Assembly: GCA_026003015.1 (NCBI GenBank)
Contig: BPGL01000001.1
Span: 1,006,717-1,070,716, forward strand
From: Actinomycetota bacterium
GTDB lineage: Bacteria > Actinomycetota > UBA4738 > HRBIN12
Direction of reading: 5' to 3'
DNA: 64,000 nt
Made by a program: the position numbers and the translations under genes. The notes beneath the pieces were generated by a model. That model did not search any database, was not told the DNA's origin, and worked only from the letters and a program-made list of their open reading frames with translations. This document shows, piece after piece, positions 6,850-28,285 of the stretch (its first letter is position 1; every line of letters begins with the position of its first letter).

Positions 6850-8592
6850 ATGGCCACATCGACCGCGGAGGTCCTGGATCTCCGTGACTACGTGCAGGTG
6901 CTCCGGCTGCGGAAGTGGTCGGTCGTCGTCACCACCTTCCTCGTCGCCGGCCTGGCCCTGGCGCAGGCGCTGACCCAGGCCGAGACCTACCAGTCGATCG
7001 CGAAGGTCCTCGTCTTGCCGGTGACGATCCCGGGAACCGAGATCGCGCCGAACCAGCAGATCCTGATGCCCAACGAGCTCGAGGTCGCCACCTCAGCGAG
7101 CGTCGCGGAGATCGCGGCGCGCAACGCCGACGCCCTCGGAGCCCCGCTGGGGACGGTGCGCGTGACGGCGCCCACCGACACCCAGACCCTGGTGTTCGAG
7201 GGCTACGCCCGCGACCCGAGGAGCGCCCAGGTCACCGCGCAGACCTACGCCGACGCCTACCTCGAGTTCCGGCGGGGGAACTTGCTGTCGAGCATCAACG
7301 CGCGGCTCGTGTCGGTCGGCGAGCTGATCGACGACCTCGAGAACCGCCGCGATCAGCTGCTCGCGGACCTCGCGGAGGCGAGCCCCCAAGAGGCGCAGGC
7401 CATCCAGTTCCAGCTGAACTCGATCAACAGCGAACTGCAGCTTCGCCAGCAGGAGCACAACGAGCTCTCGTTGGCGGCCGAGATCCCGGTCGGCAGGATC
7501 CTGCAGGAGGCCACCGCGCCCCAGGGTCCGTACAGCCCCCGGCCGCTGCGCAACCTCGCGATCGGCCTCGTGCTCGGCCTCGTGCTGGGCGTGGGGCTCG
7601 CCCTGCTGCGGGACCGGCTCGACCAGCGGCTCCGCGGCAGCGAGGACGTCGAGGCGGTGGCAGGCGCGCCGGTCCTCGGGCGGGTGCCCCGCGCGCCGTC
7701 GCTGCACCGTCTGATCGCCGTCGGACGCGGCGGGGACGCGCACGCCGCGGAGGCGTTCCGAGCGCTTCGGACCCGGGTGCTGTTCGGAAGCTCCAAGGAG
7801 GGCTTCCGGACCGTGATGATCACGAGCTCGGCCCAGGGGGAAGGCAAGACGACCGTCGCGGCGAACCTCGCCGCGGCCCTCGCCCAGGCCGACACCCGGA
7901 TCGTCCTCGTGTCGGCGGACCTGCACCACCCCGGCCTGTGGCGCTACCTCCCGGAACGCGGCAAGGGGCTGGCGGACGTGCTGGCCGGCACGGCGAGCCT
8001 GGACGAGACGCTCGTTCCGACGACCTACGACCACCTCTCGTTCCTGCCGAGCGGGACGATCGAGGACGTGCCGGAAGCGGCCCTCGGGTCGGCCGACATG
8101 TTCCGCGTGCTCGAGCAGCTCGCCGAGCGGGCCGACCTCGTCGTGATCGACGCCCCGCCGGTGCCCGGCGTCTCCGACACCCTCGATCTCGCCTCGCTCG
8201 TCGATCGGGTCGTGCTCGTGGTCGACGCGAGCCAGGCGAACAAGGATCGGGTGCGCGAGGCCGTGTCCGAGCTGCGATCCGTCGGAGCCACGATCCTCGG
8301 AGCGGTCCTCACCAGGGTCGACCCCGGGCGGTTCGGCTACGCCTACACGTACCGCTACGGCGCCCGGCGAGAAACCCAGGATCAGCACGAGCCGACCGAG
8401 ACCCTGCCGGCGCCGGCGCCCGTCCCGGCCCCCCAGGGGTCGCGGTCCGTCCCGACCCGGGGTTCCGCGTCGGCCTCGGCTCGCCCGGAGCTCGCCCCCG
8501 TCTCGACGCCCCCGCCGCCCGCGCGGGGCGCGCGTCAGACCCCTCCCGCCGAGATCCCGCCGCGTCGGGACGCCGGGGCGGGCGACGGCTAG
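6850..8592 (+). CDS. Polysaccharide co-polymerase / BY-tyrosine autokinase (Wzc-like, chain-length determinant)
   Basis: The N-terminus has TM and Wzz-like parts. The C-terminus has Walker A SSAQGEGKTT and a tyrosine cluster YAYTYRYG. Confidence 0.85.
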   Translation: MATSTAEVLDLRDYVQVLRLRKWSVVVTTFLVAGLALAQALTQAETYQSIAKVLVLPVTIPGTEIAPNQQILMPNELEVATSASVAEIAARNADALGAPLGTVRVTAPTDTQTLVFEGYARDPRSAQVTAQTYADAYLEFRRGNLLSSINARLVSVGELIDDLENRRDQLLADLAEASPQEAQAIQFQLNSINSELQLRQQEHNELSLAAEIPVGRILQEATAPQGPYSPRPLRNLAIGLVLGLVLGVGLALLRDRLDQRLRGSEDVEAVAGAPVLGRVPRAPSLHRLIAVGRGGDAHAAEAFRALRTRVLFGSSKEGFRTVMITSSAQGEGKTTVAANLAAALAQADTRIVLVSADLHHPGLWRYLPERGKGLADVLAGTASLDETLVPTTYDHLSFLPSGTIEDVPEAALGSADMFRVLEQLAERADLVVIDAPPVPGVSDTLDLASLVDRVVLVVDASQANKDRVREAVSELRSVGATILGAVLTRVDPGRFGYAYTYRYGARRETQDQHEPTETLPAPAPVPAPQGSRSVPTRGSASASARPELAPVSTPPPPARGARQTPPAEIPPRRDAGAGDG

Positions 8593-9878
8593 AGGTCGGT
8601 GAAGCGAGCGAGGAAGTAGCGGTCCACGCAGGGCGCGGGGCTCTGCGTGCCGTCGCAGACCTGGGTGAACTGACCTCCGACCCAAACCCGATCCCCGGCG
8701 TCGGTCACGAGGATGTCCCACGGACCGTAGAACTTGCCCTCGAAGTTCGGTCGCCAGGTGAGATCGCAGTTGCCGTTGAGGTCGGTGACCCCGAACCGGG
8801 CCGTCTTCGGCTTGGACTGCGAGCAGGTCCCCGCCGGGTACGTGACGCCTCCGCCGAAGTGCCCGCCGAAGTACACGCGGTCGTCCCCCGTCGCGGAGGT
8901 TCCCTGGTCGTTCACGGCCACCGTCTGCACGTTCCCGGAGGTCTGGCGGATCCACAGCGCCTCACCGTCGTCGTCGGCGACGTCGAAGGCGTACAGGAAG
9001 TTCTGGCCGCCGATCCCGACGAACAGGCGCTGGGTCGCGCAGCTCAGAGCGAGATCGTAGGCGACCGATCCGTTGCCGATCTCCGCGTCGCGGGTGGCCC
9101 AGGCCTCGAGCGCACCGGTGGCGGCGTCGAAGCGCGCGACGCTGTCGCGGGTGACGAGCGACCCCCCCTGCCCGGCGGCCTGCTCGAAGAGCCCCCCGGC
9201 GTAGACCGAGTCCCCAGCGCAGTCGAACAGCAGGCTCCGCACCGACCCGGCCGTGCGCGGATGCCAGGGAAGCAGCGCCCCCGACGTGTCGAACGCCGCG
9301 AGGAAGCTTCGGCCCACACCGTCCACGTTCGTGAAGTAGCCGCCGACGTACACGGTGGTCGGCGAGGCGATCATCGCGCGGATCGGCTTCGCGAGGCTCC
9401 CCCCGACGTTGGCATCCACGCCGGGGTCGAGGACACCGCCGGCCTCCGACACAGCGGCGAAGTTCATCCGCGGCACCCCGTCGACGAGGTCGAACTTCCC
9501 ACCGAAGAAGACCTTGCCGCCGGCCACGGCGATCGCGTAGACGGTGGCTCGCTTGCCGTCGGTGCGCGTGACCTCCACCTTCCAGGTCCGGTCGACCTCG
9601 CCCGTCGCGGCGTTCAAGCGGGCGATCCCGATCGAGCGAACGGTCGAGCCGGGCTGCCCGGGAGGGGTGGAGCGAACCCTCGTGAACTGGCCGCCGATGT
9701 AGACGTGGTCGCCGGCGCGCACGACCGCGTAGACCGTGCCGTTCGTCATCCACGTGGGGTCGGGCACCTCGTCGAAGGCGCGGGCGGGCGGCGCCAGTGC
9801 CGCCACCAGGACCAGGGCGGGCAGGGCCGCGCGCACGCGCCGCCGGACCCGTCGGGCGATCGTCATCCCAAGCACCAC
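8589..9878 (-). CDS. Secreted repeat (beta-propeller-like) protein
   Basis: It has a signal peptide and a recurring GGxFtxVxG...ARLnAaTGevD motif. Confidence 0.55.
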   Translation of the reverse strand: MVLGMTIARRVRRRVRAALPALVLVAALAPPARAFDEVPDPTWMTNGTVYAVVRAGDHVYIGGQFTRVRSTPPGQPGSTVRSIGIARLNAATGEVDRTWKVEVTRTDGKRATVYAIAVAGGKVFFGGKFDLVDGVPRMNFAAVSEAGGVLDPGVDANVGGSLAKPIRAMIASPTTVYVGGYFTNVDGVGRSFLAAFDTSGALLPWHPRTAGSVRSLLFDCAGDSVYAGGLFEQAAGQGGSLVTRDSVARFDAATGALEAWATRDAEIGNGSVAYDLALSCATQRLFVGIGGQNFLYAFDVADDDGEALWIRQTSGNVQTVAVNDQGTSATGDDRVYFGGHFGGGVTYPAGTCSQSKPKTARFGVTDLNGNCDLTWRPNFEGKFYGPWDILVTDAGDRVWVGGQFTQVCDGTQSPAPCVDRYFLARFTDL

Positions 9879-10125: not shown

Positions 10126-11388
10126 ATGCGGACCTGGGCGCGCCCGACGACCGTCGGCACCCTCGCGGCGCTCGCCGTTACCCTGCTCGCGCCGGCCGTC
10201 CGGGCGGCGCCGCCGTCGAGCAGCACCGCGGACAACGGCGTCTTCATGGTCGACGGGCCGGTGGTCAACGACGTCGTCGTCGTTGGCGGCAACGCGTGGA
10301 TCGGCGGCGCGTTCTCTGAGGTCCAGGACCAGAGCGGCAGCCGCGTGGCCGGAGCCCGCGGCCTCACGGTCTTCGGTCCGACGGGGCAGCTCGTCGGCTC
10401 GATCCATGCGAGCCTGCCCGAGCTCGGAGGCACCTCCCCGACCGTGTTCGACCTGTCGCTCGGCCCCAACGGAACGCTGTACGCGGCCGGCAAGTTCACC
10501 TACACGGTCGGTGGGAAGACCTACAAGAACCTCGTCGGGATCGACCCGGCCACGGGCGGCGTCGTCGCCACCTACATCGCCAACCCCTTGAAGTCGGTCC
10601 TCGCCACCTCGGACTACGTCTACGGCGGCGGTCGGAAGCTCTGGCGGTTCAAGCTCGGCGGTGGGCCGGCCAGCGATGGGTGGCACACGATGACGGCCTA
10701 CGTCGACGGGAGCCTCCGCGGCCACACGATCCAGCCCGCGTTCCGCGAGATCGAGCTCGCGTCGGCGACGCGGCTGATCGTCGTGGGCCAGTTCGACTGG
10801 ATCGATGGGACCGGGACCGCGAACCAGAAGAAGGTCGCGGTGATGGTGAACGTCGCAACCGGTCAGCCCGACCTCGGCACCGGCAGTTGGACCCTCGGGT
10901 GCTCCTGCGCCCGACAGGAGAGCGCGGCCTTCGGCCACGCGGTCGACGTCGATGCCACCGCCGGGATCGCCTACGTGGGCGCGGGGGGGAACGACTGGTT
11001 GGCGGCGGTCCGGCTGTCCGATGGATCGGTCGTGTGGCAAACGGACACGAACGGCTCGGTCCAGGACCTCGCGGTCTACGACGCCGAGACGCTGATCGTC
11101 GGCGGCCACTGGACGTATATCGAGCTCGTGGGCCCCAACGACCAGAGCGGGTCGGAGTGCCCGTCGAGGACGTCGAGCGACCCGGGCACCTGCTGGGCGC
11201 AGCCACGGCTCGCCGCGCTGAGCCGGGCCAACGGCCTGCCGCACACGTCCTGGACGCCCGCGCCGTGCTGCAAGTACCGCGGGATCTGGGCGACGACCGT
11301 CGAGGGCGCCCGGGTGCACGTCGGGGGTGAGTTCACGAAGCTCGACACCGAGAGCGGCCCCGAGCGCTTCTACGGTCGCTTCAGCTGA
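10126..11388 (+). CDS. Secreted repeat (beta-propeller-like) protein. Distant paralog of the 8589-9878 gene.
   Basis: It has a signal peptide (LAALAVTLLAPAVRA) and the same kind of GGxF...G repeat units. Confidence 0.55.
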   Translation: MRTWARPTTVGTLAALAVTLLAPAVRAAPPSSSTADNGVFMVDGPVVNDVVVVGGNAWIGGAFSEVQDQSGSRVAGARGLTVFGPTGQLVGSIHASLPELGGTSPTVFDLSLGPNGTLYAAGKFTYTVGGKTYKNLVGIDPATGGVVATYIANPLKSVLATSDYVYGGGRKLWRFKLGGGPASDGWHTMTAYVDGSLRGHTIQPAFREIELASATRLIVVGQFDWIDGTGTANQKKVAVMVNVATGQPDLGTGSWTLGCSCARQESAAFGHAVDVDATAGIAYVGAGGNDWLAAVRLSDGSVVWQTDTNGSVQDLAVYDAETLIVGGHWTYIELVGPNDQSGSECPSRTSSDPGTCWAQPRLAALSRANGLPHTSWTPAPCCKYRGIWATTVEGARVHVGGEFTKLDTESGPERFYGRFS

Positions 11389-11754: not shown

Positions 11755-12663
11755 ATGGATCGACGCACGTTCCTGAAGCGGTCGGCCCTGGTCGGCGCCA
11801 CCCTCGCCGCGGCGCCGAACCTCGGCCTGGACAGCCTGGCGGCCACCCGGCGCAACGTCCGGTGGGGAGCGCTGTGCCTGCCGCGCTCGGGCCAGCGGGA
11901 CCAGATCGAGGCCGTGCAGGACCTCGAGGCCAAGGTCGGCCGCCGCTTCGACACGACGCACTACCGCCTGCGCTGGGAGCTCCCGCTCGTCAACGACTTC
12001 ACCCGCTGGAGCGTTCGGACCGGGCATACGCCGATCATCTCCTGGTTCACGCGCAAGCGGGGCGGCGGGATGGTGAGCTGGGAAGCGATCGCCCGCGGCG
12101 AGCACGACGAGTGGATCACGAAGCAAGCGCGGAGCCTGAAGGACGCCGGGTGGCGGGGCTACTTCTGCTTCCACAAGGAGCCGGAGAACGAAGGCAACGC
12201 CCAGGACTGGAAGGCGGCGCACGACCGCGTCTACCAGATCTTCCACAACGTCGGGGTCAGGTTCCGCTTCGTCGCTACCCTCACCGCCTACACGTTCGCC
12301 GGGGGCAACGGCGGCGCCGGCGCGTGGCTCCCGCCCCGCTACGACGTGATCGGGGTCGACGGCTACAACCGCTACCGGTGCACGAGGAAGGACTGGCGGA
12401 ACTTCTCGGAGATCTTCAGCCCGGCGCGCGAGGTGGCGCGACGGCGCGGGAAGAACCTGTACATCGTCGAGTACGGATCGACCGAGGGCGGCTCGGGCCA
12501 GAAGGCCGACTGGATCCACAACGCCCGACGCGCGATCAAGGATTGGCCGGAGGTCGTGGGATGCTCGTACAACCACGAGCACACCGACTGCCTCTACTAC
12601 GTGGACTCCTCGTCCTCGGCGCTCAAGGCCTTCCGCGAGATGGGCGCCGACCCGACGTTCTAG
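11755..12663 (+). CDS. Tat-secreted glycoside-hydrolase-like protein (GH26/GH5-clan-like)
   Basis: It has a twin-arginine signal RRTFLKRSALVGATLAAAP and a HKEPENEGN motif resembling the clan GH-A acid/base region. Confidence 0.5.
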   Translation: MDRRTFLKRSALVGATLAAAPNLGLDSLAATRRNVRWGALCLPRSGQRDQIEAVQDLEAKVGRRFDTTHYRLRWELPLVNDFTRWSVRTGHTPIISWFTRKRGGGMVSWEAIARGEHDEWITKQARSLKDAGWRGYFCFHKEPENEGNAQDWKAAHDRVYQIFHNVGVRFRFVATLTAYTFAGGNGGAGAWLPPRYDVIGVDGYNRYRCTRKDWRNFSEIFSPAREVARRRGKNLYIVEYGSTEGGSGQKADWIHNARRAIKDWPEVVGCSYNHEHTDCLYYVDSSSSALKAFREMGADPTF

Positions 12664-13460
12664 GCGTAGCCGTAGCGGGCCAGCTGCTCGCCGGCGACGT
12701 CCTCGAGGAGCGCGAGGAGCTCCGCATCGAGGGTCGAGCGCCACTGCCCGATCGTCCCGCGGCGAAACGTTGGGCTGTCGGCCGAGAACAGCCGCTCGCA
12801 GACCCGTCGCACGAGGTCGTCGTCGGGCTCGAGCCCGAGGTGGCGGTAGAGCCCGGCGACGGCCTCGCGCTGGCGCCGTGGGTCGCCCCCGCCGCGCGCG
12901 CCGACGAGGTCCTCGAAGCGGACGACCAGGACCCCAGGGGCCTCGAGCCAGCCGGCGTAGTCGGCGAGCCGTCGACCGATCGAGCGCAAGCCGCCGCGCT
13001 CGTCCCCGGCGATCGCGAGCCGCAGCCGCTCTCGCTCGTCGGCTCGGGCCGCGAACAGGCCGTGTGCCCAGTGGTCGGTTCGGCCCATCGCGTAGCGGGC
13101 CTGGGAGATCACGACGTCGCGGGGGTCGCGGACCAAGAAGACGCCCCGCACCGCCCGGCGCCGCAGGTCCCCCGGGTAGGCGGGGTCGAACCGCAGGTGG
13201 GCCAGCACGACCTCGCCGGGTCCGAGCCGGGCAAGCAGCCCGTCGAGCCCACCCCGCCCGAGCTTGGCGCCCGTGATCGTGGGCAGGATCTTGCGGTACA
13301 AGCGCGGGTGCAGGCACAGCGCCCGCTCCACCAGGTGGGTGCCCGCCTTCGGGATGCTCACGCCGAGGACCTTCGGAGCGCTTCGGTCCAGGGCGCGGGC
13401 GCGCAGCTTCGCCGGGGTCAGGCCGAACCGCTCGAGCGTCCAGCGGTTCGCCGGGATCAC
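12660..13460 (-). CDS. Sulfotransferase family protein (PAPS-dependent), paralog 1
   Basis: The 5'-PSB-like motif is SIPKAGTHLV and the 3'-PB-like motif is RDPRDVVIS. Confidence 0.75.
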   Translation of the reverse strand: MIPANRWTLERFGLTPAKLRARALDRSAPKVLGVSIPKAGTHLVERALCLHPRLYRKILPTITGAKLGRGGLDGLLARLGPGEVVLAHLRFDPAYPGDLRRRAVRGVFLVRDPRDVVISQARYAMGRTDHWAHGLFAARADERERLRLAIAGDERGGLRSIGRRLADYAGWLEAPGVLVVRFEDLVGARGGGDPRRQREAVAGLYRHLGLEPDDDLVRRVCERLFSADSPTFRRGTIGQWRSTLDAELLALLEDVAGEQLARYGYA

Positions 13461-14554: not shown

Positions 14555-15352
14555 TCAGCGCGGTTCGAAGCTGATCCGGCCGGTCTTCTTCGCGAGGAGC
14601 CACGACGGGTTCCGCGCGTTCAGCCGCAGGCTGAGGGCCCGGCCGAGCAGGTAGGGCACGAGGCCCTCTCCCCCGTGGGCTACGCGGACCCGGCGGCTCT
14701 CCTGGCGCATGCGCTCGGGGTCCAGCGAGATCTGGCCCGGGTGCAGCCGGAACCGGCCCAGGACGCGGGGGAGGACGAGCGGAGGGGCGAGCTTCAGCGC
14801 CCGCGCGTACCAGTCGTAGTCGCCGCAGTTGCGGTAGGTGTCGTCGTACGGACCCACGCGTTCCAGGAAGCTCCGCCGCACCCACACGGTCTGCTGGGGG
14901 ATCGGGGACCAGCCGATCCCGAGGTAGGCGCGCAGGGACGGAGCGACGGGCCGCATGCGTCCGAGGACCCGGCCCGCCTCGTCGATGTACTCGACCGTCC
15001 CGATCACCCACTCGGCCTCCGGATGCGCGGCGAGGCCCTCGACCACCGCCTGCAGCGCCCCGGGCGCGATCTCGTCGTCGGCGTTGATGTAGCCGACGAC
15101 GTCGCCCTCGACGGCCGCGAGCCCCCGGTTGATGGCGTCGTACATCCCCCGGTCGTCGGTCGCGACGACCACCCGAGACGGGAAGGCGGCCGCGATCTCG
15201 AGCGTGCGGTCCTTCGACCCGCCGTCGACGATCACGTGGTCGATCCGTACGCCCTGCTGCCCCCAGATGGAGCGCAGGGTCGCCTCGAAGAACGCCTCGG
15301 CGTCGAGCGTGGGGGTGACGACGCCCACCGTCGTCGCTTCGTGGTCGGTCAT
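14555..15352 (-). CDS. Glycosyltransferase family 2
   Basis: GT2-like motifs are present (VVTPTLDAE ... DGGSKD ... DDE). Start chosen at MTDHEATT. Confidence 0.7.
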   Translation of the reverse strand: MTDHEATTVGVVTPTLDAEAFFEATLRSIWGQQGVRIDHVIVDGGSKDRTLEIAAAFPSRVVVATDDRGMYDAINRGLAAVEGDVVGYINADDEIAPGALQAVVEGLAAHPEAEWVIGTVEYIDEAGRVLGRMRPVAPSLRAYLGIGWSPIPQQTVWVRRSFLERVGPYDDTYRNCGDYDWYARALKLAPPLVLPRVLGRFRLHPGQISLDPERMRQESRRVRVAHGGEGLVPYLLGRALSLRLNARNPSWLLAKKTGRISFEPR

Positions 15353-15377
15353 CGGTCGTCCTGTAACGTAGGGGGCC

Positions 15378-21870: not shown

Positions 21871-22826
21871 GGCGACCCTCGGTAGCCGTAGCGGACCAAC
21901 AGCGGCCAGGTGAGCGCGGTCACCACGCGCCGGTGCGTCGGCGACAGCCGGTGACGCCAGGCGTCGTCCTCGCGCAGGGGCAGGCGACCGGCCTCCAACC
22001 GCATGCGACTGCCGGCGGCGAGGTGATCGGTCGGCAGCTCCACCCAGCCCTCACCGATGAACCCCAGGTCGTCGACCCGCCGCTCGATCCCAAGCTCGCT
22101 CAGCACGCGCAGCAGGGCCCCCTTGGGCGAACGAACGAGCTCCTCGTAGCGGAGACGCGACGTCGGGACGCCGAGCCCGGCCAGCGCGTCGAACGAGAGG
22201 TTCATCCAGATCCACTTCTCGCCGGACTTGGGAGGCGGGCGGCGCACCCGGAACTCGTCCGAGCGAGCTCCCTGGCGGTGGACCCACTTCGTCTTCGAGT
22301 ACGCCACACCGCGGCTGTCGCGCACGAGGTGCACAACGCGCAGGTCGACCTCGGGCATCCTGCTCACCATGTAGACGTGCGCGGGCTGCTTCATCGAGTC
22401 GACGATGACCCGCCCGCCGGACGCGCGATGGATCCCCACGTACAGCCGACCCATCAGCGCTTGGTAGCGACGCAGGTCGGCGCCGTAGCGCCGGGACAGC
22501 GACGGCCGGAGGATCAGGGGCAGAGCGAGGGCGTGGGGCGCCCGCCCCCGAAGCGTCAGGCCGTCGCGCAGGCGCGTGGCCTCGGCGGTGTCCACGCGGT
22601 CCCAGCCGCCGAAGGCCTCCTCGCCCACGGCCGTCCAGAACGGGCAGGCGCGGAACGGCTCCCCGCACCCGCAGGCCATGTCCTCCACGAGCCCCTTGTC
22701 CCACACACGACCGGTCTCACCCACGGCGACGAGGCCCGGCACCTGCCCGAGCATCCGAGCGAGCAGCGTGGACCCGCTCTGGCCGATCGCACCGATGCAC
22801 AGCACGGGGATGCGCTCCATCGACAT
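21867..22826 (-). CDS. Sulfotransferase family protein, paralog 5
   Basis: The motifs are IGAIGQSGSTLLARML and HLVRDSRGVAYS. Start taken at MSMERIPV. The track ORF extends further 5' across the neighbouring gene. Confidence 0.7.
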   Translation of the reverse strand: MSMERIPVLCIGAIGQSGSTLLARMLGQVPGLVAVGETGRVWDKGLVEDMACGCGEPFRACPFWTAVGEEAFGGWDRVDTAEATRLRDGLTLRGRAPHALALPLILRPSLSRRYGADLRRYQALMGRLYVGIHRASGGRVIVDSMKQPAHVYMVSRMPEVDLRVVHLVRDSRGVAYSKTKWVHRQGARSDEFRVRRPPPKSGEKWIWMNLSFDALAGLGVPTSRLRYEELVRSPKGALLRVLSELGIERRVDDLGFIGEGWVELPTDHLAAGSRMRLEAGRLPLREDDAWRHRLSPTHRRVVTALTWPLLVRYGYRGSP

Positions 22827-22977: not shown

Positions 22978-23802
22978 GTGATCTTCCTGCACATCGGCAA
23001 GACCGCGGGCTCGTCGCTGCGTCGGATCCTGCGCAGACAGTTCCCGGCGCGGGAGGTCCTCGAGTTCCGAGCACCGCTGCCCGAACCGGGGCGCCTGCGC
23101 CGGGAAGGCGCGGTCGCCGCCTTCGCGACGATCCCCGAGGCCGACCGAGCCCGCGCCCGCCTGATCATGGGGCACACGACCTTCGGGCTGCACGAGCTCG
23201 TGCCCCGGCCGAGCACGTACATCACGATGCTCCGCGACCCGGTGGCGCTCGTCGTCTCCCTGTACGGGCACATCCTTCGCACCGAGCGCCACATCCTGCA
23301 CGACGAGGTCGTCAGCAGGGGACTCTCGCTGGGCGGGTTCGTTCGCAGCGGGATCTCCGTGGAGGCCGACAACAGCCAGACCCGCGCCCTCGCCGGCGAC
23401 ACGTCCACCCCGTTCGGGGGCTGCACGGAGGCGATGCTCGAGCGCGCCAAGACCAACGTGGAACGCCACGTCGCCGTAGCCGGACTGACGGAGCGTTTCG
23501 ACGAGTCGCTGCTGCTGCTCGGGCGGACCTTCGGCTGGACCCGCCTGTACTACGTGGCCATGAACACCGCGCCGAGGCGGATCGAGCCGACGGCGGAGGA
23601 GATCGAGGAGATCCGGGAGCGCAACCGCTTGGACCTCGACCTGTACGCGTGGGCCGCAGCCCGGTTCGAGGAGCAGCTCGCCGCCGACCCGAGCTTCGAC
23701 GATCGGCTCCGGCGGTTCCGCCGCGCGAACCGCCTGTACCGCCCCTGGGGTCAGCTCACGTGGGCGCTGCCCACCCGGGCGGCCGCCCGTCTGGCGCGCT
23801 AG
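22978..23802 (+). CDS. Sulfotransferase family protein, paralog 6
   Basis: The motifs are IFLHIGKTAGSSL and TMLRDPVALVVS. The GTG start is far from the only SD, so the start is uncertain. Confidence 0.65.
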   Translation: MIFLHIGKTAGSSLRRILRRQFPAREVLEFRAPLPEPGRLRREGAVAAFATIPEADRARARLIMGHTTFGLHELVPRPSTYITMLRDPVALVVSLYGHILRTERHILHDEVVSRGLSLGGFVRSGISVEADNSQTRALAGDTSTPFGGCTEAMLERAKTNVERHVAVAGLTERFDESLLLLGRTFGWTRLYYVAMNTAPRRIEPTAEEIEEIRERNRLDLDLYAWAAARFEEQLAADPSFDDRLRRFRRANRLYRPWGQLTWALPTRAAARLAR

Positions 23803-24959
23803 CCGCGCGCCTCGATCGCCGCGCCGTAGGCGTCCTCGAGGGCACGAAGGCCGGCCTGCGGCCCGTACCGGTCCCGCCACAGGGCCGCCGCCCGGTCGCC
23901 GAGGCGACGGACCTCGGCGTCCTCCAGGAGCCGCCGACAGGCCGCCGTCCACGCCCCGGGCTCGCCGGCCGGCACGAGCAGCCCGGTCTCGCCGTGGACC
24001 ACGCCCTCGGGGAGCGCGCCGACCGCGCTGGCGACGACGGGAACGCCCGCCGCGTAGGCCTCGAGGACCGCGCGCGGCACGGCCGGCTCGGGCCAGCGCG
24101 AGGGGACGAGGACCGCGCGCGCGGCCGCGATCAGGTCCGCCGCCCGGTCGGCCGGAACCGGACCGAGCACCTCGACCTCCGGCGGGACGTCACGGCGGAG
24201 CCGTTCGGACTCAGGTCCGTCTCCGGCCACGAGCAGGCGCCCGAGCTCCGGACGCCATGCGGCGAGCAGGACGTCGACCCCCTTCTCCGGCGCGAGGCGG
24301 CCGAGGAACAGGAAGTGCTGGCCCGGGCCGTCGCGCCGGCGGGCCGGCGGGACGAAGTTCGGCTTGACGAGGATCCGCTCGGCCTCGAACCCGGCGCCCA
24401 CGTGGCGGTCGCGCACGAACGCGCTCACGGCGAGGAAGCGGTGCACGGCGGCGAACGAGCCGACGGCTCGGTGCAGGGTCAAGGAGGCGGCGAGGGCCGC
24501 GCTGCCGGCCAACGAGCCGCGGTAGCAGCGGTAGCGGACACCGCGCCAGGGGACCCGACCGACGCAGACCTCGCACGGCCGGCCGTCGCGTTCGAGCGAG
24601 GCCGGGAGGCAGAGCAGCCGGTAGTTGTGGAGGGTCACGACGACGGCCGCCCCCGCGCCGCGCGCGGCGGTCAGGACCGCCGGCGATAGGGTCGGGAACA
24701 GGTTGTGGGCGTGAACAACGTCGATGTGCTCACGCCGAACGACCCGTCGCACCGCCGCCGCGACGTCGGGCGCCCAGAGGGCTCGGGCCGCGGTACGGAT
24801 GCGATCCCGGGCGCGGTCGACCTGCGGCTCGAGCTGACGGAGCACGACCCGGTGGCCGGCGTCGGCCAGCATCCGTGCCTCGTCGACCACCACCCGGTTC
24901 TCCCCGGAGACGTCGCCGGACCGGTAGCGGGAGTGAAGGATCAGGACGCGCACGACCAT
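23799..24959 (-). CDS. Glycosyltransferase family 4
   Basis: GT4 domain architecture is present, with a C-terminal E..E motif region (PSRWPEPAVPRAVLEAYAAGVPVVAS). Confidence 0.8.
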   Translation of the reverse strand: MVVRVLILHSRYRSGDVSGENRVVVDEARMLADAGHRVVLRQLEPQVDRARDRIRTAARALWAPDVAAAVRRVVRREHIDVVHAHNLFPTLSPAVLTAARGAGAAVVVTLHNYRLLCLPASLERDGRPCEVCVGRVPWRGVRYRCYRGSLAGSAALAASLTLHRAVGSFAAVHRFLAVSAFVRDRHVGAGFEAERILVKPNFVPPARRRDGPGQHFLFLGRLAPEKGVDVLLAAWRPELGRLLVAGDGPESERLRRDVPPEVEVLGPVPADRAADLIAAARAVLVPSRWPEPAVPRAVLEAYAAGVPVVASAVGALPEGVVHGETGLLVPAGEPGAWTAACRRLLEDAEVRRLGDRAAALWRDRYGPQAGLRALEDAYGAAIEARG

Positions 24960-25017: not shown

Positions 25018-26007
25018 TCAGACCGCTTCGCGCTGCGTCCGGACGCGGCCGGCCTTCACGAGCTCGGACTCGATCCAGCGGTACGTGGCCGCGATCCCGT
25101 CCTCGAGGGACGTGCTGGGTTCCCAGCCGAGCACCTCGCGCAGCTTCGTGTTGTCGCTGTTGCGACCCCGCACCCCCTGAGGCTTGGACACATCGTGGAC
25201 CTTCACGAGGGTCTTGCCCGCAGCCGCGCAGACGAGGTCGACCAGCCCGTCGACGGTGATCAGCCGATCCGTCCCGAGGTTCAGCGGCGAGCGGTAGTCC
25301 GAGCGCATGAGGCGATGGATCCCCTCGACGCAGTCGTCGACGTAGGTGAACGACCGGGTCTGCTGGCCGTCGCCCCAGATCTCGATCGCGTCGCCGTCGG
25401 ACGCCAGGGCCACCTTCCGGCAGATCGCAGCCGGGGCCTTCTCACGGCCGCCCTCGTAGGTCCCCAGCGGGCCGTAGATGTTGTGGAAGCGGGCGACGCG
25501 GGTGTCGAGCTTGCCCTCCTCGGTGAAGTACTGGCAGAGCTTCTCCGCGTACAGCTTCTCCCAGCCGTACCCCTCCTCGGGGTCGGCGGGGTACGCGTCC
25601 TCCTCCCTGAGCGGCGTGACGTCGGGCTCGTGCTGCTTGTACATGGGGTAGATGCAGGCCGACGAGGAGTAGAAGTAGCGCTCCACGCCGTTCTCGTGTG
25701 CGGCCTGGAGCATGTGCGCGTTGATGAGCACGTTGTTGCGCGCGACGTCAGCGTGGTTCGCGGTGATGTAGCCGATGCCTCCCATGTCGGCGGCCAGCTG
25801 GTACACCTCGTCGACGTCGGCGGTGGCCTTCCGACAGTTCTCGAACTCCCGCAGGTCGAGCAGGAGGAACTCGTCGGCGTCGGTCGGCTCGTACTCGGGT
25901 TCCTTGATGTCGACGCCGCGGACCCGGTAGCCCTCGGCCTTCAGGTACTTCACGAGGTGGTGCCCGATGAACCCCCCGGCCCCCGCCACGGTCGCACGCT
26001 TCGTCAT
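25018..26007 (-). CDS. NAD-dependent epimerase closely resembling GDP-mannose 3,5-epimerase
   Basis: GAGGFIGHH, YASSACIYP and RFHNIYGP..GGREKAPAA are collinear with GME. The ATG at 26007 follows a GGAGGA SD. Confidence 0.75.
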   Translation of the reverse strand: MTKRATVAGAGGFIGHHLVKYLKAEGYRVRGVDIKEPEYEPTDADEFLLLDLREFENCRKATADVDEVYQLAADMGGIGYITANHADVARNNVLINAHMLQAAHENGVERYFYSSSACIYPMYKQHEPDVTPLREEDAYPADPEEGYGWEKLYAEKLCQYFTEEGKLDTRVARFHNIYGPLGTYEGGREKAPAAICRKVALASDGDAIEIWGDGQQTRSFTYVDDCVEGIHRLMRSDYRSPLNLGTDRLITVDGLVDLVCAAAGKTLVKVHDVSKPQGVRGRNSDNTKLREVLGWEPSTSLEDGIAATYRWIESELVKAGRVRTQREAV

Positions 26008-26834
26008 CGCGATCCTCCGTTCGCCCATGACCCGCCGCGTCGCCACCCCAGCAGCTGGGCTGCGAACAGGGCGACGAAGCGGGGGTTCTGCTTCAGGTAG
26101 CGGCGCCACAGACGCCGCGGCTCGGTCGCCAGCCGGAAGGCCCACTCCAGCCCGGCCCGCTGGAGCAGGCGGGGCGCCTGGCGCTTGCGCCCGCTCAGGA
26201 AGTCGAACGCCGCTCCCACGCCGACCGTGACCGCCGGCACACGCCCCCGGTTGCGAGCCATCCACCGCTCCTGCTTCGGACACCCCAGGCCGACGAAGAC
26301 GATCCGCGCGCCCGAACGGGCGATCTCGGCCGCGCTGCGCCGCTCCTCCTCGGCGGCGAGCTCACGGAACGGCGGCGCTTCTGCGTAGACGATCCGAAGC
26401 GCCGGGAACGCGCGGGCGGCGAAGGCGCGCAGGTCGGCGAGGACCTCGGGGGTCCCGCCGTACAGGCCCACCGGCACACCCTCCGTCGCGGCGCGGGCCA
26501 GTAGCCGCGGCATCAGCTCCGGGCCGCATACGCGCGTCGCCGAGCGAACCCCCAGCCACCGCAGCCCCCACACGAGCGGCATGCCGTCGGGCGTGACGAG
26601 ATCCCCGTCGTTCATCACGTGGCGGTAGGTGGGATCGTCGTAGCTGTGCATCACGTTGTTGACGGTCGCGACGAACACCGTGCGGCTCTCCCCGTACTTC
26701 GCCCAACGGATCACCCGCTCGACCGCATCGTCGTAGGACGTCGCGTCGACCCGCATCCCCAAGATCCACCGGTATCGCAGCGGTGGCAGGAGGGCGTCGG
26801 CCGCCGACGCGGAGGGGACGTCGGTGCTCGCCAC
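26004..26834 (-). CDS. WecB/TagA/CpsF-family glycosyltransferase (GT26)
   Basis: It aligns to WecG/TagA (RYRWILGMRVDA...GLGCPKQERWM). The GTG start overlaps the upstream stop. Confidence 0.75.
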   Translation of the reverse strand: MASTDVPSASAADALLPPLRYRWILGMRVDATSYDDAVERVIRWAKYGESRTVFVATVNNVMHSYDDPTYRHVMNDGDLVTPDGMPLVWGLRWLGVRSATRVCGPELMPRLLARAATEGVPVGLYGGTPEVLADLRAFAARAFPALRIVYAEAPPFRELAAEEERRSAAEIARSGARIVFVGLGCPKQERWMARNRGRVPAVTVGVGAAFDFLSGRKRQAPRLLQRAGLEWAFRLATEPRRLWRRYLKQNPRFVALFAAQLLGWRRGGSWANGGSR

Positions 26835-26836
26835 GA

Positions 26837-28285
26837 TCAGTACGCCCCCATCCGCGCGATCGTCGCGATCACCGTCTTGGCGAGGATGTACAGGTCCAGG
26901 CCGATCGACCAGTTCTGGATGTAGTACAGGTCCATCCGCACGGCCTGCTCGGGGTCCACGTCGCTGCGGCCGTTGACCTGCCACCATCCGGTGAGACCCG
27001 CCCGCACCTCGTGCCGCGCCTCGAGCAGCTCGGGGTTCGCACGGACCTGCTCCTCCCACAGCGGCCGCGGACCGACCAAGCTCATGTCACCGCGGACGAC
27101 GTTCCACAGCTGCGGCAGCTCATCGAGGCTCGTTCGCCGAAGGAACGCCCCGATCGGGGTCAGCCTCGGGTCATCGCGGAGCTTGAAGAACGGCTTCGTG
27201 AGGTCGATCACGGCGTCCTCGAGGGCGGCGCGCTGGTCGGTGTGCATCGTGCGGAACTTCAAGCACGTGAAGATCCGGCCGTCCTTCGTGACGCGGGGCT
27301 GGCGGAACAGCACGGGGCCCGGCGAGGTGAGCCGGACGGCGATCGCGACGGCGAGCATCACCGGCGCGGCCAGGACCAGCCCGATCGACCCCAGCACGAG
27401 GTCGAACGCGCGCTTGGCGGCCGCCTGCGGCCCGGTGAGGCGCGCCGGGTGCACGCGCAGCGCCAGGAAGTCCCCGACGCTTTCGAAATCCAGGCGCTCG
27501 GTGTGCACGTCCGGGAGGTTCGCGGCGACGCGCAGCTCCAGGTCGTAGCGGCGGCTCAGGCGCCCGAGCCTGGTCATGTCGTTCGGACCGATCTCGGACG
27601 AGGCGACGAACAGGCACTCGATCCCCTCCTCCAGCACGATCCGCTCGAGATCGTCGAACCCTCCGAGGACCGACCCGGGGACCTCCTCGGGCGTGTCGGT
27701 CACGAACCCGACCGGCCGGTACCCGCGCGCCGGCGGCACGATCGCGGCGGCGATCCGGGCGGCCTCGCCGTCGCGACCCACGATCGCGGTTCGCAGGGCG
27801 AGCGTCCCGCGACGCCGGAGCGACCGCACCCCGGCGCGCCACAACCCGCGCGCCAGGAGCTCCGCGAGGAGCGCGGATCCCCACAGGAGGGCGACCCGAC
27901 CGCGAGCGATGCTGCCGTCCCACAGGGGGGTCGCCGCCTCGAGACCGAGCACCGCCACGCTCGTGGCGGCGACGATTCGGCGGAACTCCTCCAGCGGCGG
28001 CAGCAGCGCCCGCCGGTACAGCCCGAACGCCGCGAAGCACGCGGCCCAGGCGATCGGGGCGAGCCCGAGGGTCACGCCGTAGCCCACGACCGAGCTCGTC
28101 GATCCGCGGAACGCCGCCACCAGGGCGAGGGCGATCGCGACGTCGGTGAGGGCCCGGGCCAGCACGACGAGGCGGAAGCGCTGCAGCGAGGGCCGGACCT
28201 TCTCCAGGTCGAGGACCCGCACGCGCTCGGCCGTGCCGAGCGCCGCGACGGCCTCCTCGCGGCCGGTGAGGTCGAGCCGTTCCAT
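26837..28285 (-). CDS. Undecaprenyl-phosphate sugar phosphotransferase (priming PGT, WbaP/CpsE-like)
   Basis: The bacterial sugar-transferase C-domain is present (PRPLWEEQV...GLTGWWQVNGRSD) with N-terminal TM helices. Confidence 0.85.
   Translation of the reverse strand: MERLDLTGREEAVAALGTAERVRVLDLEKVRPSLQRFRLVVLARALTDVAIALALVAAFRGSTSSVVGYGVTLGLAPIAWAACFAAFGLYRRALLPPLEEFRRIVAATSVAVLGLEAATPLWDGSIARGRVALLWGSALLAELLARGLWRAGVRSLRRRGTLALRTAIVGRDGEAARIAAAIVPPARGYRPVGFVTDTPEEVPGSVLGGFDDLERIVLEEGIECLFVASSEIGPNDMTRLGRLSRRYDLELRVAANLPDVHTERLDFESVGDFLALRVHPARLTGPQAAAKRAFDLVLGSIGLVLAAPVMLAVAIAVRLTSPGPVLFRQPRVTKDGRIFTCLKFRTMHTDQRAALEDAVIDLTKPFFKLRDDPRLTPIGAFLRRTSLDELPQLWNVVRGDMSLVGPRPLWEEQVRANPELLEARHEVRAGLTGWWQVNGRSDVDPEQAVRMDLYYIQNWSIGLDLYILAKTVIATIARMGAY

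What the first reader, a model, noticed from the sequence alone, without database searches (positions are those of the whole stretch)
6850..28285. Candidate sulfated-exopolysaccharide locus: Wzx/Wzy/Wzc assembly genes interleaved with six paralogous PAPS-type sulfotransferases
Over about 21 kb a complete Wzx/Wzy-dependent pathway is packed with six separate sulfotransferase paralogs. The pathway has a priming PGT, GT2/GT4/GT26 transferases, a Wzx flippase, a Wzy polymerase and a Wzc BY-kinase. The sulfotransferases sit on both strands at 12660-13460, 15378-16304, 17724-18725, 20869-21870, 21867-22826 and 22978-23802. Each one shows a 5'-PSB-like P-loop (for example IAGVGKAGTTSL) and most show a 3'-PB-like RDP..S motif. 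A cysC APS kinase lies at 900-1517 nearby, and two LuxR response regulators sit at the other edge. Loci that decorate a bacterial polysaccharide with this many sulfotransferases are, as far as I know, rare and poorly characterised. The gene content predicts a heavily and heterogeneously sulfated heteropolysaccharide. That is the working hypothesis.
Basis: partly seen in the sequence, partly recalled or inferred. Interest (0 to 1): 0.85.

Follow-up and report, generated by a model that had tools for sequence, protein, structure and literature searches.

The report
Six-sulfotransferase polysaccharide locus, uncultured actinobacterium
An uncultured hot-spring actinobacterium carries a complete polysaccharide assembly locus with six different sulfate-adding enzymes, more than any studied bacterial locus I found, so it probably makes a very heavily sulfated sugar polymer, though nobody has measured this.

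Summary
All six ORFs sit at the stated coordinates. Each passes a Pfam sulfotransferase gathering cut-off, and each has both PAPS-binding motifs. The Wzx/Wzy pathway is complete: PGT, GT26, GT4, GT2, Wzx, Wzy and a Wzc BY-kinase. cysC and two LuxR-type regulators flank it.

- The six enzymes are not recent paralogues. They show no significant pairwise similarity, and each is conserved as its own orthologue in related loci.
- The locus type is not rare in nature. Ten or more related loci, each with two to six detected sulfotransferase genes, turned up in other uncultured Actinomycetota and in metagenome contigs.

The source is MAG KatS3mg013, class UBA4738 / MB-A2-108, 2.2 Mb, from Katase hot spring sediment.

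- A secreted GH26-like hydrolase, as in the Actinoplanes wps-1 cluster.
- A barrel-only pyruvate kinase translationally coupled to one sulfotransferase. It may regenerate ATP for PAPS synthesis.
- A conserved cytoplasmic beta-propeller family with no Pfam domain. It is linked to sulfotransferase genes across very different genomes, and is fused to one in at least one protein.

Verdict: a new, expanded variant of a known kind, namely sulfotransferase-bearing Wzx/Wzy loci. Sulfation itself is inferred, not shown.

The parts
900..1517 (-). CysC, adenylyl-sulfate (APS) kinase. Makes PAPS from APS. It lies 5.3 kb from the locus and overlaps the upstream phosphodiesterase gene by 4 bp.
   Evidence: Pfam APS_kinase 207.9 bits. 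NCBIfam PRK00889 251 bits (cut-off 244) and apsK 212.8 bits (cut-off 138.7).
1514..2971 (-). Type I phosphodiesterase / nucleotide pyrophosphatase family protein in an apparent operon with cysC. Role unknown and membership of the system uncertain.
   Evidence: Pfam Phosphodiest 142 bits. The same gene pair occurs on Logan contig L018.
6850..8592 (+). Wzc-type polysaccharide co-polymerase fused to a BY tyrosine autokinase.
   Evidence: Pfam Wzz, GNVR and ParA/AAA_31. NCBIfam eps_fam 137 bits (cut-off 108). Walker A GEGKT, Walker B VVIDAPP, C-terminal YAYTYRY and two TM segments.
8589..9866 (-). Secreted beta-propeller-like protein 1, with an N-terminal hydrophobic signal. Function unknown.
   Evidence: Weak DUF5122 hit. 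26% identical to its paralogue at 10126-11388. Conserved in L007, L008 and L011.
10126..11388 (+). Secreted beta-propeller-like protein 2, paralogue of the previous gene. Function unknown.
   Evidence: No Pfam or NCBIfam hit. Signal-like N-terminus. Orthologues in L007 and L011.
11755..12663 (+). Secreted GH26-like glycoside hydrolase with a twin-arginine signal. Probably trims or releases the polymer.
   Evidence: TAT signal TIGR01409. PDB match to the C. thermocellum endoglucanase H GH26 module 2cit, E 4.6e-9 over about 245 residues. Orthologues in 7 related loci.
12660..13460 (-). ST1, a SULT/Teg-like PAPS sulfotransferase. It overlaps the upstream pyruvate kinase gene by 4 bp.
   Evidence: Sulfotransfer_1 28.9 bits (cut-off 22). 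Motifs PKAGTH, RDPRDVVIS and RRGTIGQW. Weak PDB hits to Teg14 and Teg12.
13457..14482 (-). Short pyruvate kinase, 341 aa. It has the catalytic barrel only and lacks the C-terminal regulatory domain.
   Evidence: Pfam PK 207 bits. PDB 2e28 E 8e-52, with the motifs AKIE, DRGDL and ATNLLESM present. Orthologues in L007, L011, L028 and at the edge of L014.
14555..15352 (-). GT2 glycosyltransferase.
   Evidence: Glycos_transf_2 71 bits. Gene as called in L001.
15378..16304 (+). ST2, a Sulfotransfer_3-type sulfotransferase. It overlaps the downstream Wzx gene by 14 bp.
   Evidence: Sulfotransfer_3 41.5 bits. Motifs HRSGT and RHPAAFAHS conserved in 10 orthologues.
16291..17727 (+). Wzx flippase.
   Evidence: Polysacc_synt 74.1 bits, plus Polysacc_synt_3 and MatE. 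About 10 TM segments.
17724..18725 (+). ST3, a Sulfotransfer_3-type sulfotransferase. It overlaps Wzx by 4 bp and is convergent with the beta-propeller gene.
   Evidence: Sulfotransfer_3 119.2 bits. PDB matches to the olefin-synthase sulfotransferase domain 4gox (1e-13) and CurM ST 4gbm (4e-10). 11 orthologues keep the motifs.
18689..19663 (-). Cytoplasmic six-bladed beta-propeller of an unannotated, strongly conserved family. Associated with sulfotransferases. Function unknown.
19717..20982 (+). Wzy-type polymerase.
   Evidence: Wzy_C 45.5 bits (cut-off 31.7). About 9 TM segments.
20869..21870 (-). ST4, a heparan-sulfate-type sulfotransferase.
   Evidence: Sulfotransfer_1 36.8 bits. PDB 3rnl 5e-22, NDST1 6e-13 and 3-OST 9e-10.
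21867..22826 (-). ST5, a sulfotransferase-fold protein with an atypical P-loop (GQSGST) and a conserved three-cysteine insert.
   Evidence: Sulfotransfer_3 33.8 bits. Family alignment A1. AF2 pLDDT 91.7. Foldseek top hits are TPST2, CurM ST, Stf9 and Stf1.
22978..23802 (+). ST6, a Gal-3-O-sulfotransferase-family enzyme.
   Evidence: Gal-3-O_sulfotr 43.3 bits (cut-off 27). Weak PDB hit to heparan 6-OST. Motifs conserved in 9 orthologues.
23799..24959 (-). GT4 glycosyltransferase.
   Evidence: Glyco_trans_1_4 107.2 bits, Glycos_transf_1 and Glyco_transf_4.
25018..26007 (-). NDP-sugar epimerase/reductase of the SDR family. Specificity unresolved.
   Evidence: Epimerase 168 bits. Gene as called in L001. 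No NCBIfam model reaches its cut-off.
26004..26834 (-). GT26 (WecG/TagA/CpsF family) glycosyltransferase.
   Evidence: PF03808 on the called gene. TIGR00696 175.8 bits (cut-off 69).
26837..28285 (-). Priming polyprenyl-phosphate hexose-1-phosphate transferase of the WbaP/WcaJ type.
   Evidence: Bac_transf 228 bits. TIGR03025 EPS_sugtrans 385.5 bits (cut-off 295.6).
28532..29829 (-). Two adjacent GerE/LuxR-type DNA-binding regulators (28532-29197 and 29194-29829) with degenerate receiver domains.
   Evidence: GerE 62.3 and 66.8 bits. Response_reg hit only in the second, 23.4 bits (cut-off 30.2). A similar pair flanks L013.

Best explanation
This is a Wzx/Wzy-dependent biosynthetic locus for a heavily sulfated heteropolysaccharide. 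It sits in an uncultivated actinobacterium, MAG KatS3mg013, class UBA4738 / MB-A2-108.

Proposed mechanism. The enzyme families are shown; the steps and their order are inferred.
1. A WbaP/WcaJ-type transferase primes undecaprenyl phosphate with a hexose-1-phosphate.
2. GT26, GT4 and GT2 enzymes extend it to a repeat unit of about four sugars. An SDR epimerase supplies one precursor.
3. Six soluble, positively charged PAPS-dependent sulfotransferases from six unrelated subfamilies each sulfate a different position of the lipid-linked repeat. This must happen on the cytoplasmic face, because PAPS is cytoplasmic. The maximum would be about 1.5 sulfates per sugar.
4. PAPS comes from the nearby APS kinase. 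A barrel-only pyruvate kinase, translationally coupled to ST1, may recycle the ADP that APS kinase produces.
5. Wzx flips the unit, Wzy polymerises it, and the Wzc tyrosine autokinase controls chain length and export.
6. A TAT-exported GH26-like hydrolase and two secreted propeller proteins act on the polymer outside the cell.
7. A conserved cytoplasmic beta-propeller encoded convergently with ST3 is a further, uncharacterised enzyme of the sulfation module.
For: - All six sulfotransferases pass Pfam gathering cut-offs and carry both PAPS motifs. The motifs are conserved in orthologues at 48-72% identity.
- ST4 matches heparan N- and 3-O-sulfotransferases. ST3 matches the CurM and olefin-synthase sulfotransferase domains. 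The ST5 model matches TPST, CurM ST and Stf structures.
- None of the six has a convincing TM segment or a signal peptide, and all carry net positive charge.
- The assembly set is complete. Wzc has the kinase motifs and the tyrosine cluster.
- Genes are tightly packed, with 4-bp overlaps joining sulfotransferases to Wzx and to the pyruvate kinase.
- The whole locus is collinear in a relative at 72% identity (L007). It is recognisable, with four to six sulfotransferases, in L011, L012, L013, L015, L022 and L024. It is therefore under selection as a unit.
- CysC is a bona fide APS kinase.
- Precedents exist. The synechan xss cluster is a proven sulfated EPS with 2 sulfotransferases whose number matches the measured sulfate. 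Actinoplanes wps-1 combines GT2, GT26, GH26, Wzx, Wzy, a Wzc-like protein and 2 sulfotransferases. In Vibrio, PAPS genes plus sulfotransferases accompany a structurally proven sulfated capsule.
- Pyruvate kinase regenerates ATP for APS kinase and relieves ADP inhibition in vitro. A short pyruvate kinase also sits next to an ST2 orthologue outside any EPS locus.
Against: - There is no chemical evidence. The organism is uncultured.
- No ATP sulfurylase, sulfate transporter or PAP phosphatase lies in the window.
- cysC is separated from the locus by unrelated genes. Its other neighbour is a TreT-like glycosyltransferase, so it may serve other sulfation targets.
- ST5 lacks the usual Lys/Arg in the P-loop. 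A 55%-identical ST5 homologue sits alone in a phosphate-regulon neighbourhood.
- The ST3-like plus propeller pair also occurs next to TonB-dependent receptors with no polysaccharide genes nearby. At least that module is therefore not intrinsically polysaccharide-specific.
- Acceptor specificity, sugar identities and stoichiometry cannot be read from the sequence.
- The pyruvate kinase role is an inference from context only.
Confidence: 0.72

Rival explanations
1. The product is a sulfated glycan, but not a released exopolysaccharide. It could be a cell-wall-linked anionic glycopolymer or capsule that functionally replaces teichoic or teichuronic acids in this monoderm lineage.
For: - GT26 (TagA/WecG family) enzymes typically build wall-polymer linkage units.
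- NCBIfam gives weak teichuronic-acid TuaC and TuaG similarities for GT4 and GT2.
- An ST5 homologue lies beside ppk and pstSCAB-phoU in another genome. This hints at a link with phosphate economy.
- The genome is small, 2.2 Mb, yet devotes about 1% of its length to the locus.
Against: - Priming is by a WbaP/WcaJ-type PGT, not a TagO/WecA-type enzyme.
- No LCP ligase was found in the locus.
- A secreted GH26 hydrolase and a Wzc kinase are typical of EPS and capsule loci.
Confidence: 0.25
2. Some of the sulfotransferases, at least ST3 with its beta-propeller partner and perhaps ST5, do not act on the polysaccharide. They may act on another acceptor such as a peptide, protein, lipid or small molecule, and merely share the locus.
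For: - Homologues of the propeller at 41-47% identity lie convergently with TPR-Sulfotransfer_3 fusion genes next to TonB-dependent receptors, without glycan genes.
- Four propeller proteins are fused to Asp/Asn beta-hydroxylase domains.
- The closest structures to ST3 and ST5 are tyrosylprotein and polyketide sulfotransferases.
- An ST5 homologue stands alone in L009.
Against: - In every close relative, ST3, ST5 and the propeller are embedded between Wzx, Wzy and glycosyltransferase genes.
- Other propeller fusions are to GT2, GT41, a Wzx flippase and a sulfotransferase domain. That points to glycan chemistry.
- The ST3 start overlaps the Wzx stop by 4 bp.
Confidence: 0.2
3. Fewer than six enzymes are catalytically active. 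One or more, most plausibly ST5, are pseudo-enzymes or scaffolds, so the polymer is only moderately sulfated.
For: - The ST5 P-loop has Gln or Met where the PAPS 5'-phosphate-binding Lys/Arg sits.
- ST5 has no sequence-level PDB relative.
- Related loci manage with three to five detected sulfotransferase genes.
Against: - The ST5 family is large, with more than 2700 homologues, and strongly conserved, including the 3'-PB motif and a Cys-rich insert. That argues for a selected function.
- The sulfotransferase fold is confidently predicted.
- All other sulfotransferases keep canonical motifs.
Confidence: 0.15

Closest known systems
Synechan xss cluster of Synechocystis sp. PCC 6803 (Maeda et al. 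2021, PMC8205485)
   Same: A Wzx/Wzy-dependent EPS cluster with sulfotransferases from distinct subfamilies embedded among glycosyltransferase genes, plus a PCP and dedicated regulators. The number of sulfotransferases matched the measured sulfate per repeat.
   Different: - xss has 2 sulfotransferases for 8 glycosyltransferases. Here there are 6 for 4.
- xss is regulated by XssS/R/Q (a STAND activator). Here there are two LuxR/GerE proteins.
- xss belongs to a diderm with an OPX protein. Here the host is a presumed monoderm with none.
- xss has no pyruvate kinase, GH26 or beta-propeller gene reported.
- Orthology of the sulfotransferases was not tested.
wps-1 cluster of Actinoplanes missouriensis (Tezuka & Ohnishi 2026, PMC13390465)
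   Same: An actinomycete Wzx/Wzy cluster with the same domain set: GT2, GT26, GH26, Wzx, Wzy, a Wzz/Wzc-like protein, a heparan-sulfate-type sulfotransferase and a Gal/GalNAc-type sulfotransferase. It is predicted, not shown, to make a sulfated EPS.
   Different: - wps-1 has 2 sulfotransferases, not 6.
- It also has a methyltransferase, a protein-kinase-like protein and a DUF4262 protein that are absent here.
- It has no pyruvate kinase or beta-propeller reported.
- Sequence-level orthology could not be tested, because no Actinoplanes sequence was reachable with these tools.
Sulfated capsule locus of Vibrio sp. KMM 8419 (PMC11641403)
   Same: Sulfotransferases and PAPS-synthesis genes co-located with polysaccharide genes. 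The product structure is proven to be sulfated.
   Different: - It is ABC-transporter (Kps) dependent, not Wzx/Wzy dependent.
- Its 3 sulfotransferases are spread over an 80-gene region.
- A full cysNDC set lies in the locus. Here only cysC is nearby.
Animal heparan sulfate modification enzymes (NDST, 3-OST, 6-OST)
   Same: Several regiospecific PAPS-dependent sulfotransferases decorate one glycan. ST4 matches the NDST1 N-sulfotransferase domain and 3-OSTs, and ST6 weakly matches 6-OST. The possible charge density is in the same range, judged from my own knowledge of heparin.
   Different: In animals sulfation is Golgi-lumenal, on a finished polymer, by membrane-anchored enzymes. Here the enzymes are soluble and cytoplasmic, and presumably act on the lipid-linked repeat before export.
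Two-step sulfation with an arylsulfate-type sulfotransferase (Cpz4 in caprazamycin biosynthesis; E. coli ASST). The pathway logic is from my own knowledge.
   Different: - There is no sequence or profile similarity to ASST families.
- The Foldseek top 50 are generic WD40, designed and lipoprotein propellers.
- The protein is 324 aa, without the extra ASST domains.
- No phenolic carrier pathway is present in the locus.

Membership tests
PAPS-dependent sulfotransferase superfamily (six ORFs) | Significant match to a curated sulfotransferase profile | tested here: met
   All six exceed the Pfam gathering score for Sulfotransfer_1, Sulfotransfer_3 or Gal-3-O_sulfotr.
PAPS-dependent sulfotransferase superfamily (six ORFs) | 5'-phosphosulfate-binding P-loop (PKxGTT-like) and 3'-phosphate-binding motif (RxPxxxxxS) | tested here: met
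   Both motifs are present in all six and conserved in orthologues. The ST5 P-loop has Gln or Met in place of Lys/Arg across its family.
PAPS-dependent sulfotransferase superfamily (six ORFs) | Sulfotransferase alpha/beta fold | tested here: met
   Tested for ST5 only. AF2 pLDDT 91.7, and the Foldseek top 34 hits are all sulfotransferase-fold proteins. ST3 and ST4 have direct PDB sequence matches. ST1, ST2 and ST6 have only weak PDB hits.
PAPS-dependent sulfotransferase superfamily (six ORFs) | PAPS binding and sulfate transfer to a sugar acceptor | not testable with these tools
   Requires enzyme assays.
Wzx/Wzy-dependent polysaccharide assembly pathway | Priming PGT, Wzx flippase, Wzy polymerase and a PCP/BY-kinase encoded together with glycosyltransferases | tested here: met
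   PGT TIGR03025 385.5 bits (cut-off 295.6). Wzx Polysacc_synt and Wzy_C are above their cut-offs. Wzc eps_fam 137 bits (cut-off 108) with a tyrosine cluster. GT2, GT4 and GT26 are present.
Sulfated-polysaccharide biosynthetic locus (hallmark proposed in PMC11641403) | PAPS-synthesis genes together with sulfotransferases in the polysaccharide cluster | tested here: inconclusive
   cysC is present but lies 5.3 kb outside the locus. No ATP sulfurylase is in the window.
Synechan (xss) type cluster | XssS/XssR/XssQ regulatory set next to the cluster | tested here: not met
   Only two GerE/LuxR proteins were found. No STAND activator or histidine kinase was found.
Actinoplanes wps-1 type cluster | Domain set GT2 + GT26 + GH26 + Wzx + Wzy + Wzc-like + heparan-type ST + Gal/GalNAc-type ST | tested here: met
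   All these domains are present. Orthology to the Wps proteins was not tested, because no sequences were available.
Glycoside hydrolase family 26 (ORF 11755-12663) | Sequence similarity to a GH26 catalytic module | tested here: inconclusive
   PDB match to the C. thermocellum endoglucanase H module, E 4.6e-9 over about 245 residues. There is no Pfam Glyco_hydro_26 hit at E <= 0.01. Candidate catalytic Glu residues (HKEPE, VEYG) were read by eye only.
Pyruvate kinase (ORF 13457-14482) | PK barrel with the catalytic Lys/Glu/Asp/Thr motifs, plus the C-terminal regulatory domain | tested here: inconclusive
   The barrel and its motifs are present (Pfam 207 bits; alignment to 2e28). The C-terminal domain is absent, and all NCBIfam pyruvate kinase models score below their cut-offs.
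Arylsulfate sulfotransferase (ASST/Cpz4) for the beta-propeller ORF 18689-19663 | Detectable homology to ASST families and an ASST-like catalytic histidine constellation | tested here: not met

The most novel reading that the evidence does not exclude
Beyond being an unusually sulfotransferase-rich EPS locus, it may reveal two unrecognised accessory components of bacterial sulfation.

1. A barrel-only pyruvate kinase dedicated to regenerating ATP, and removing ADP, for PAPS synthesis.
2. A widespread, unannotated cytoplasmic beta-propeller enzyme family with 1116 representative clusters. It partners with Sulfotransfer_3-type enzymes across phyla, in actinobacterial EPS loci and next to TonB-dependent receptors in lower-GC contigs. 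It may act as a PAPS-independent sulfo-relay of the ASST/Cpz4 kind, or as another modifier of sulfated substrates.
Probability: 0.25. Interest if true: 0.8.

Novelty: new variant of a known kind. Interest (0 to 1): 0.62.

Why it matters
- **State of the field.** Outside cyanobacteria and a few marine Gram-negatives, sulfated polysaccharides are hardly documented in bacteria. For actinomycetes they have only been proposed, in 2026, from a two-sulfotransferase cluster.
- **What this locus adds.** A deep-branching, soil- and hot-spring-dwelling actinobacterial class keeps a conserved locus with up to six distinct sulfotransferases for about four sugars. That predicts a polyanion with a charge density approaching that of heparin.
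- **Enzyme discovery.** If confirmed, the locus offers a set of soluble, probably thermotolerant, regiospecific polysaccharide sulfotransferases. Such enzymes are sought for animal-free production of heparin-like materials.
- **Ecology.** It names a candidate producer of sulfated glycan polymers in sediments and soils.
- **Testable leads.** It gives two leads on how bacteria sustain PAPS-hungry pathways: the short pyruvate kinase and the sulfotransferase-associated beta-propeller.

Tried and rejected
- **afdb50 fold search.** The library was unavailable.
- **LMW phosphatase at 36262-36690 as the Wzb partner of Wzc.** NCBIfam places it closer to arsenate reductases, below cut-off, and an ArsR-type regulator is encoded nearby. 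Not claimed.
- **Extending the window leftwards from cysC to look for ATP sulfurylase.** Only contigs of 2.4-2.6 kb were returned.
- **Searching the source paper's supplements for cysC, cysN or sat.** Nothing found.
- **Rfam scan of the window.** No RNA family reached its gathering score.
- **Sugar identity from the epimerases and glycosyltransferases.** No NCBIfam equivalog reached its cut-off.
- **Literature search for the TonB receptor / TPR-sulfotransferase / hydroxylase context.** No paper found.
- **'Six paralogues from recent duplication'.** Rejected, because there is no significant pairwise similarity.
- **'Core cell-wall cluster without sulfation chemistry'.** Rejected on gene content.

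Full report
**1. What is in the sequence**

The window is 72% G+C, so I filtered ORFs by third-position GC. I then checked them against genes called independently on identical Logan contigs, where L001 coordinate + 7723 = window coordinate.

Each exceeds the Pfam gathering score of a sulfotransferase family:
- ST1: Sulfotransfer_1, 28.9 bits (cut-off 22).
- ST2: Sulfotransfer_3, 41.5 (cut-off 27).
- ST3: Sulfotransfer_3, 119.2.
- ST4: Sulfotransfer_1, 36.8.
- ST5: Sulfotransfer_3, 33.8.
- ST6: Gal-3-O_sulfotr, 43.3.

Each has a 5'-phosphosulfate-binding P-loop at its N-terminus and a 3'-phosphate-binding R-x-P...S motif.

Sequence searches of the PDB gave:
- ST4: a bacterial sulfotransferase (3rnl, 5e-22), the heparan N-sulfotransferase domain and the 3-O-sulfotransferases.
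- ST3: the olefin-synthase and CurM sulfotransferase domains, Stf1 and tyrosylprotein sulfotransferases.
- ST1, ST2 and ST6: only weak sulfotransferase hits.
- ST5: none.

ST5 also has Gln where the P-loop Lys/Arg normally sits, so I modelled it from 35 homologues. The model is confident (pLDDT 91.7). Its best 34 Foldseek matches are all sulfotransferase-fold proteins, mostly solved with PAP or PAPS: TPST2, CurM ST, Stf9, Stf1, SULTs and 3-OSTs.

**2. The assembly pathway**

All of these are present:
- A WbaP/WcaJ-type priming transferase, 26837-28285 (TIGR03025 385.5 bits, cut-off 295.6).
- GT26/WecG, 26004-26834.
- GT4, 23799-24959, and GT2, 14555-15352.
- An SDR epimerase, 25018-26007.
- Wzx, 16291-17727, and Wzy, 19717-20982.
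- A Wzc co-polymerase fused to a BY-kinase, 6850-8592. [quoted passage not shown]

cysC (900-1517) is a bona fide APS kinase. Two GerE/LuxR regulators close the locus at 28532-29829. Their receiver domains are degenerate.

Genes are packed tightly. Overlaps of 4 bp link Wzx to ST3, ST5 to ST4, and the pyruvate kinase to ST1. ST2 overlaps Wzx by 14 bp.

**3.

First, the six enzymes are not paralogues in any recent sense. The best pairwise BLASTP E-value among them is 0.015. They are six separate subfamilies, and each is kept as its own orthologue in related loci with the PAPS motifs intact. None has a signal peptide or a convincing TM segment, and all carry net positive charge. Cytoplasmic action on an anionic substrate is therefore the natural reading.

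Second, the locus type is not rare in nature. A scan of one genome per species found two relatives, both uncultured actinobacterial MAGs.
- L007, at 72% identity, is collinear over the whole locus with all six sulfotransferases.
- L008 is rearranged and shows four, counting a partial ST5 at the contig end.

Looking up homologues of ST5, of the beta-propeller and of the pyruvate kinase added further loci:
- L011: six sulfotransferases.
- L012, L015 and L022: five each.
- L013 and L024: four each.
- L014: three.
- L026 and L028 (shorter contigs): two each.

**4. Source organism**

NCBI names the window's proteins KatS3mg013_10xx. The supplement of Kato et al. 2022 gives, for MAG KatS3mg013:
- Source: Katase hot spring sediment. 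The main text gives 52 C.
- GTDB classification: c__UBA4738; f__HRBIN12; g__AC-51. SILVA: MB-A2-108.
- Size: 2.20 Mb in 4 contigs, 72.95% G+C.

The lineage has no cultured member that I could find. A 2026 preprint on UBA4738 genomes does not mention sulfotransferases or exopolysaccharides.

**5.

(a) ORF 11755-12663 has a twin-arginine signal. It matches the GH26 module of C. thermocellum endoglucanase H (E 4.6e-9). The Actinoplanes wps-1 cluster also contains a GH26 enzyme.

(b) ORF 13457-14482 is a 341-aa pyruvate kinase. It has the catalytic barrel and its motifs but no C-terminal regulatory domain.
- It co-occurs with ST1 in the window, L007 and L011.
- The listed 120 homologues are nearly all about 340 aa long (330-393) and at least 65% identical. 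JGI labels four of them 'sulfate adenylyltransferase', which I cannot explain.
- In a Gaiellaceae contig, the short kinase sits beside an ST2 orthologue outside any polysaccharide locus.
- In vitro, pyruvate kinase regenerates the ATP used by APS kinase and prevents ADP inhibition.
- I therefore propose, as inference, a dedicated ATP-recycling role for PAPS synthesis.

(c) ORF 18689-19663 has no Pfam domain and is encoded convergently with ST3. It folds as a six-bladed beta-propeller (pLDDT 90.0).
- The family has 1116 representatives at the 50% identity level.
- It is strikingly conserved. Members on contigs of 39-73% G+C share invariant motifs: GRGxDRGLRG, SDE, CHE, HxN, HN and DxRNxxHG.
- Homologues at 59% identity or more lie in window-type loci.
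- More distant homologues lie between a TonB-dependent receptor gene and a convergent TPR-Sulfotransfer_3 fusion gene.
- A convergent ST3-like gene follows the propeller in 21 of 53 loci with enough sequence. This is a lower bound.
- Fusion proteins join the propeller to a Sulfotransfer_1 domain plus GT41, to GT2, to a Wzx flippase, and to Asp/Asn beta-hydroxylase domains.
- The firm conclusion is narrower: this is an enzyme-like family functionally tied to sulfotransferases.

(d) Two secreted propeller-like paralogues (8589-9866 and 10126-11388) remain unexplained.

**6. Mechanism and its limits**

The best-supported model is a repeat unit of about four sugars built on undecaprenyl phosphate. 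Up to six regiospecific cytoplasmic enzymes sulfate it with PAPS. It is then flipped, polymerised and exported under Wzc control, and trimmed outside the cell by the GH26-like enzyme.

Shown here:
- Family membership of each protein.
- Motif conservation.
- Operon-like packing.
- Conservation of the locus as a unit.

Inferred:
- The acceptor, the positions sulfated and the order of steps.
- The stoichiometry.
- The roles of the pyruvate kinase and the propeller.

Against the model:
- There is no chemistry.
- No ATP sulfurylase lies in the window.
- cysC is separated from the locus and adjoins a TreT-like glycosyltransferase.
- An ST5 homologue occurs alone in a phosphate-regulon neighbourhood.
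- The ST3-plus-propeller pair occurs in non-glycan contexts.

**7. Comparison with known systems, and novelty**

Proven or proposed sulfotransferase-bearing polysaccharide loci have two or three sulfotransferases:
- Synechan xss: 2 for 8 glycosyltransferases, with sulfate matching the gene number.
- Vibrio KMM 8419: 3 across 80 genes, with cysNDC.
- Pontiella: 1 in its cluster.
- Actinoplanes wps-1: 2, prediction only.

The present locus shares the full wps-1 domain set but triples the sulfotransferase count. It also adds the kinase and the propeller. It lacks the xss regulators.

I rate it a new variant of a known kind. It is interesting for three reasons:
- The predicted charge density.
- The enzyme toolbox.
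- The two accessory families.

It remains unproven chemically.

Noticed in passing
window 18689-19663 (-); L042 6995-12363; L045 7560-13206; proteins P0362, P0363, P0367, P0383: The unannotated beta-propeller family recurs next to sulfotransferase genes far outside Actinomycetota. On contigs of 39-64% G+C it sits between a TonB-dependent receptor gene and a convergent TPR-Sulfotransfer_3 fusion gene. Some members are fused to Sulfotransfer_1 + GT41, GT2, Wzx or Asp/Asn beta-hydroxylase domains.
   Followed up: yes
window 13457-14482 (-); L019 8959-11026: A barrel-only pyruvate kinase (341 aa) is translationally coupled to ST1. A 70%-identical homologue in a Gaiellaceae contig sits beside an ST2 orthologue outside any EPS locus. 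JGI labels four close homologues 'sulfate adenylyltransferase', for reasons I could not establish.
   Followed up: partly
window 4613-5107 (-) and 5098-6231 (-): A Cpn60/GroEL gene is split into two overlapping ORFs of 164 and 377 aa. The syntenic gene in relative L014 is an intact 541 aa. This is a frameshift, either a real pseudogene or an indel error in a long-read assembly.
   Followed up: partly
window 1-896 (+) and 900-2971 (-); L016, L018: cysC forms a 4-bp-overlapping pair with a type I phosphodiesterase / nucleotide pyrophosphatase gene. Its other neighbour is a 468-aa TreT-like GT4 glycosyltransferase, cut by the window edge. This could point to a second, non-polymer sulfation target such as a sulfated disaccharide. 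That is pure speculation.
   Followed up: partly
L009 7764-16269: A 55%-identical homologue of ST5 stands alone between polyphosphate kinase and phoU-pstBAC-S genes in another uncultured genome. This hints that the subfamily may be linked to phosphate limitation.
   Followed up: no
window 21867-22826 (-), residues 52-61: The ST5 family carries an invariant CxC...C insert (CGCGxPFxxCPFW) just after the P-loop, and Gln or Met in place of the P-loop Lys/Arg. The insert may be a metal site. It is not described for sulfotransferases, to my knowledge.
   Followed up: partly
window 36262-36690 (+), 41945-42370 (-): A low-molecular-weight phosphatase-fold protein sits next to glmS/glmM, and an ArsR-type regulator lies a few kb on. 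It resembles arsenate reductases more than Wzb, but all hits are below cut-off. A role as the Wzc phosphatase is not excluded.
   Followed up: partly
window 34000-36000: G+C rises to 78.5% over this stretch, and my GC3 filter called no gene between 34278 and 36262. Several long overlapping ORFs are present. I did not analyse it.
   Followed up: no
window 20869-20982: The convergent Wzy and ST4 reading frames overlap by 114 bp. The last 36 or so residues of ST4 are not conserved in orthologues, so the annotated ST4 C-terminus may be a non-functional tail.
   Followed up: no
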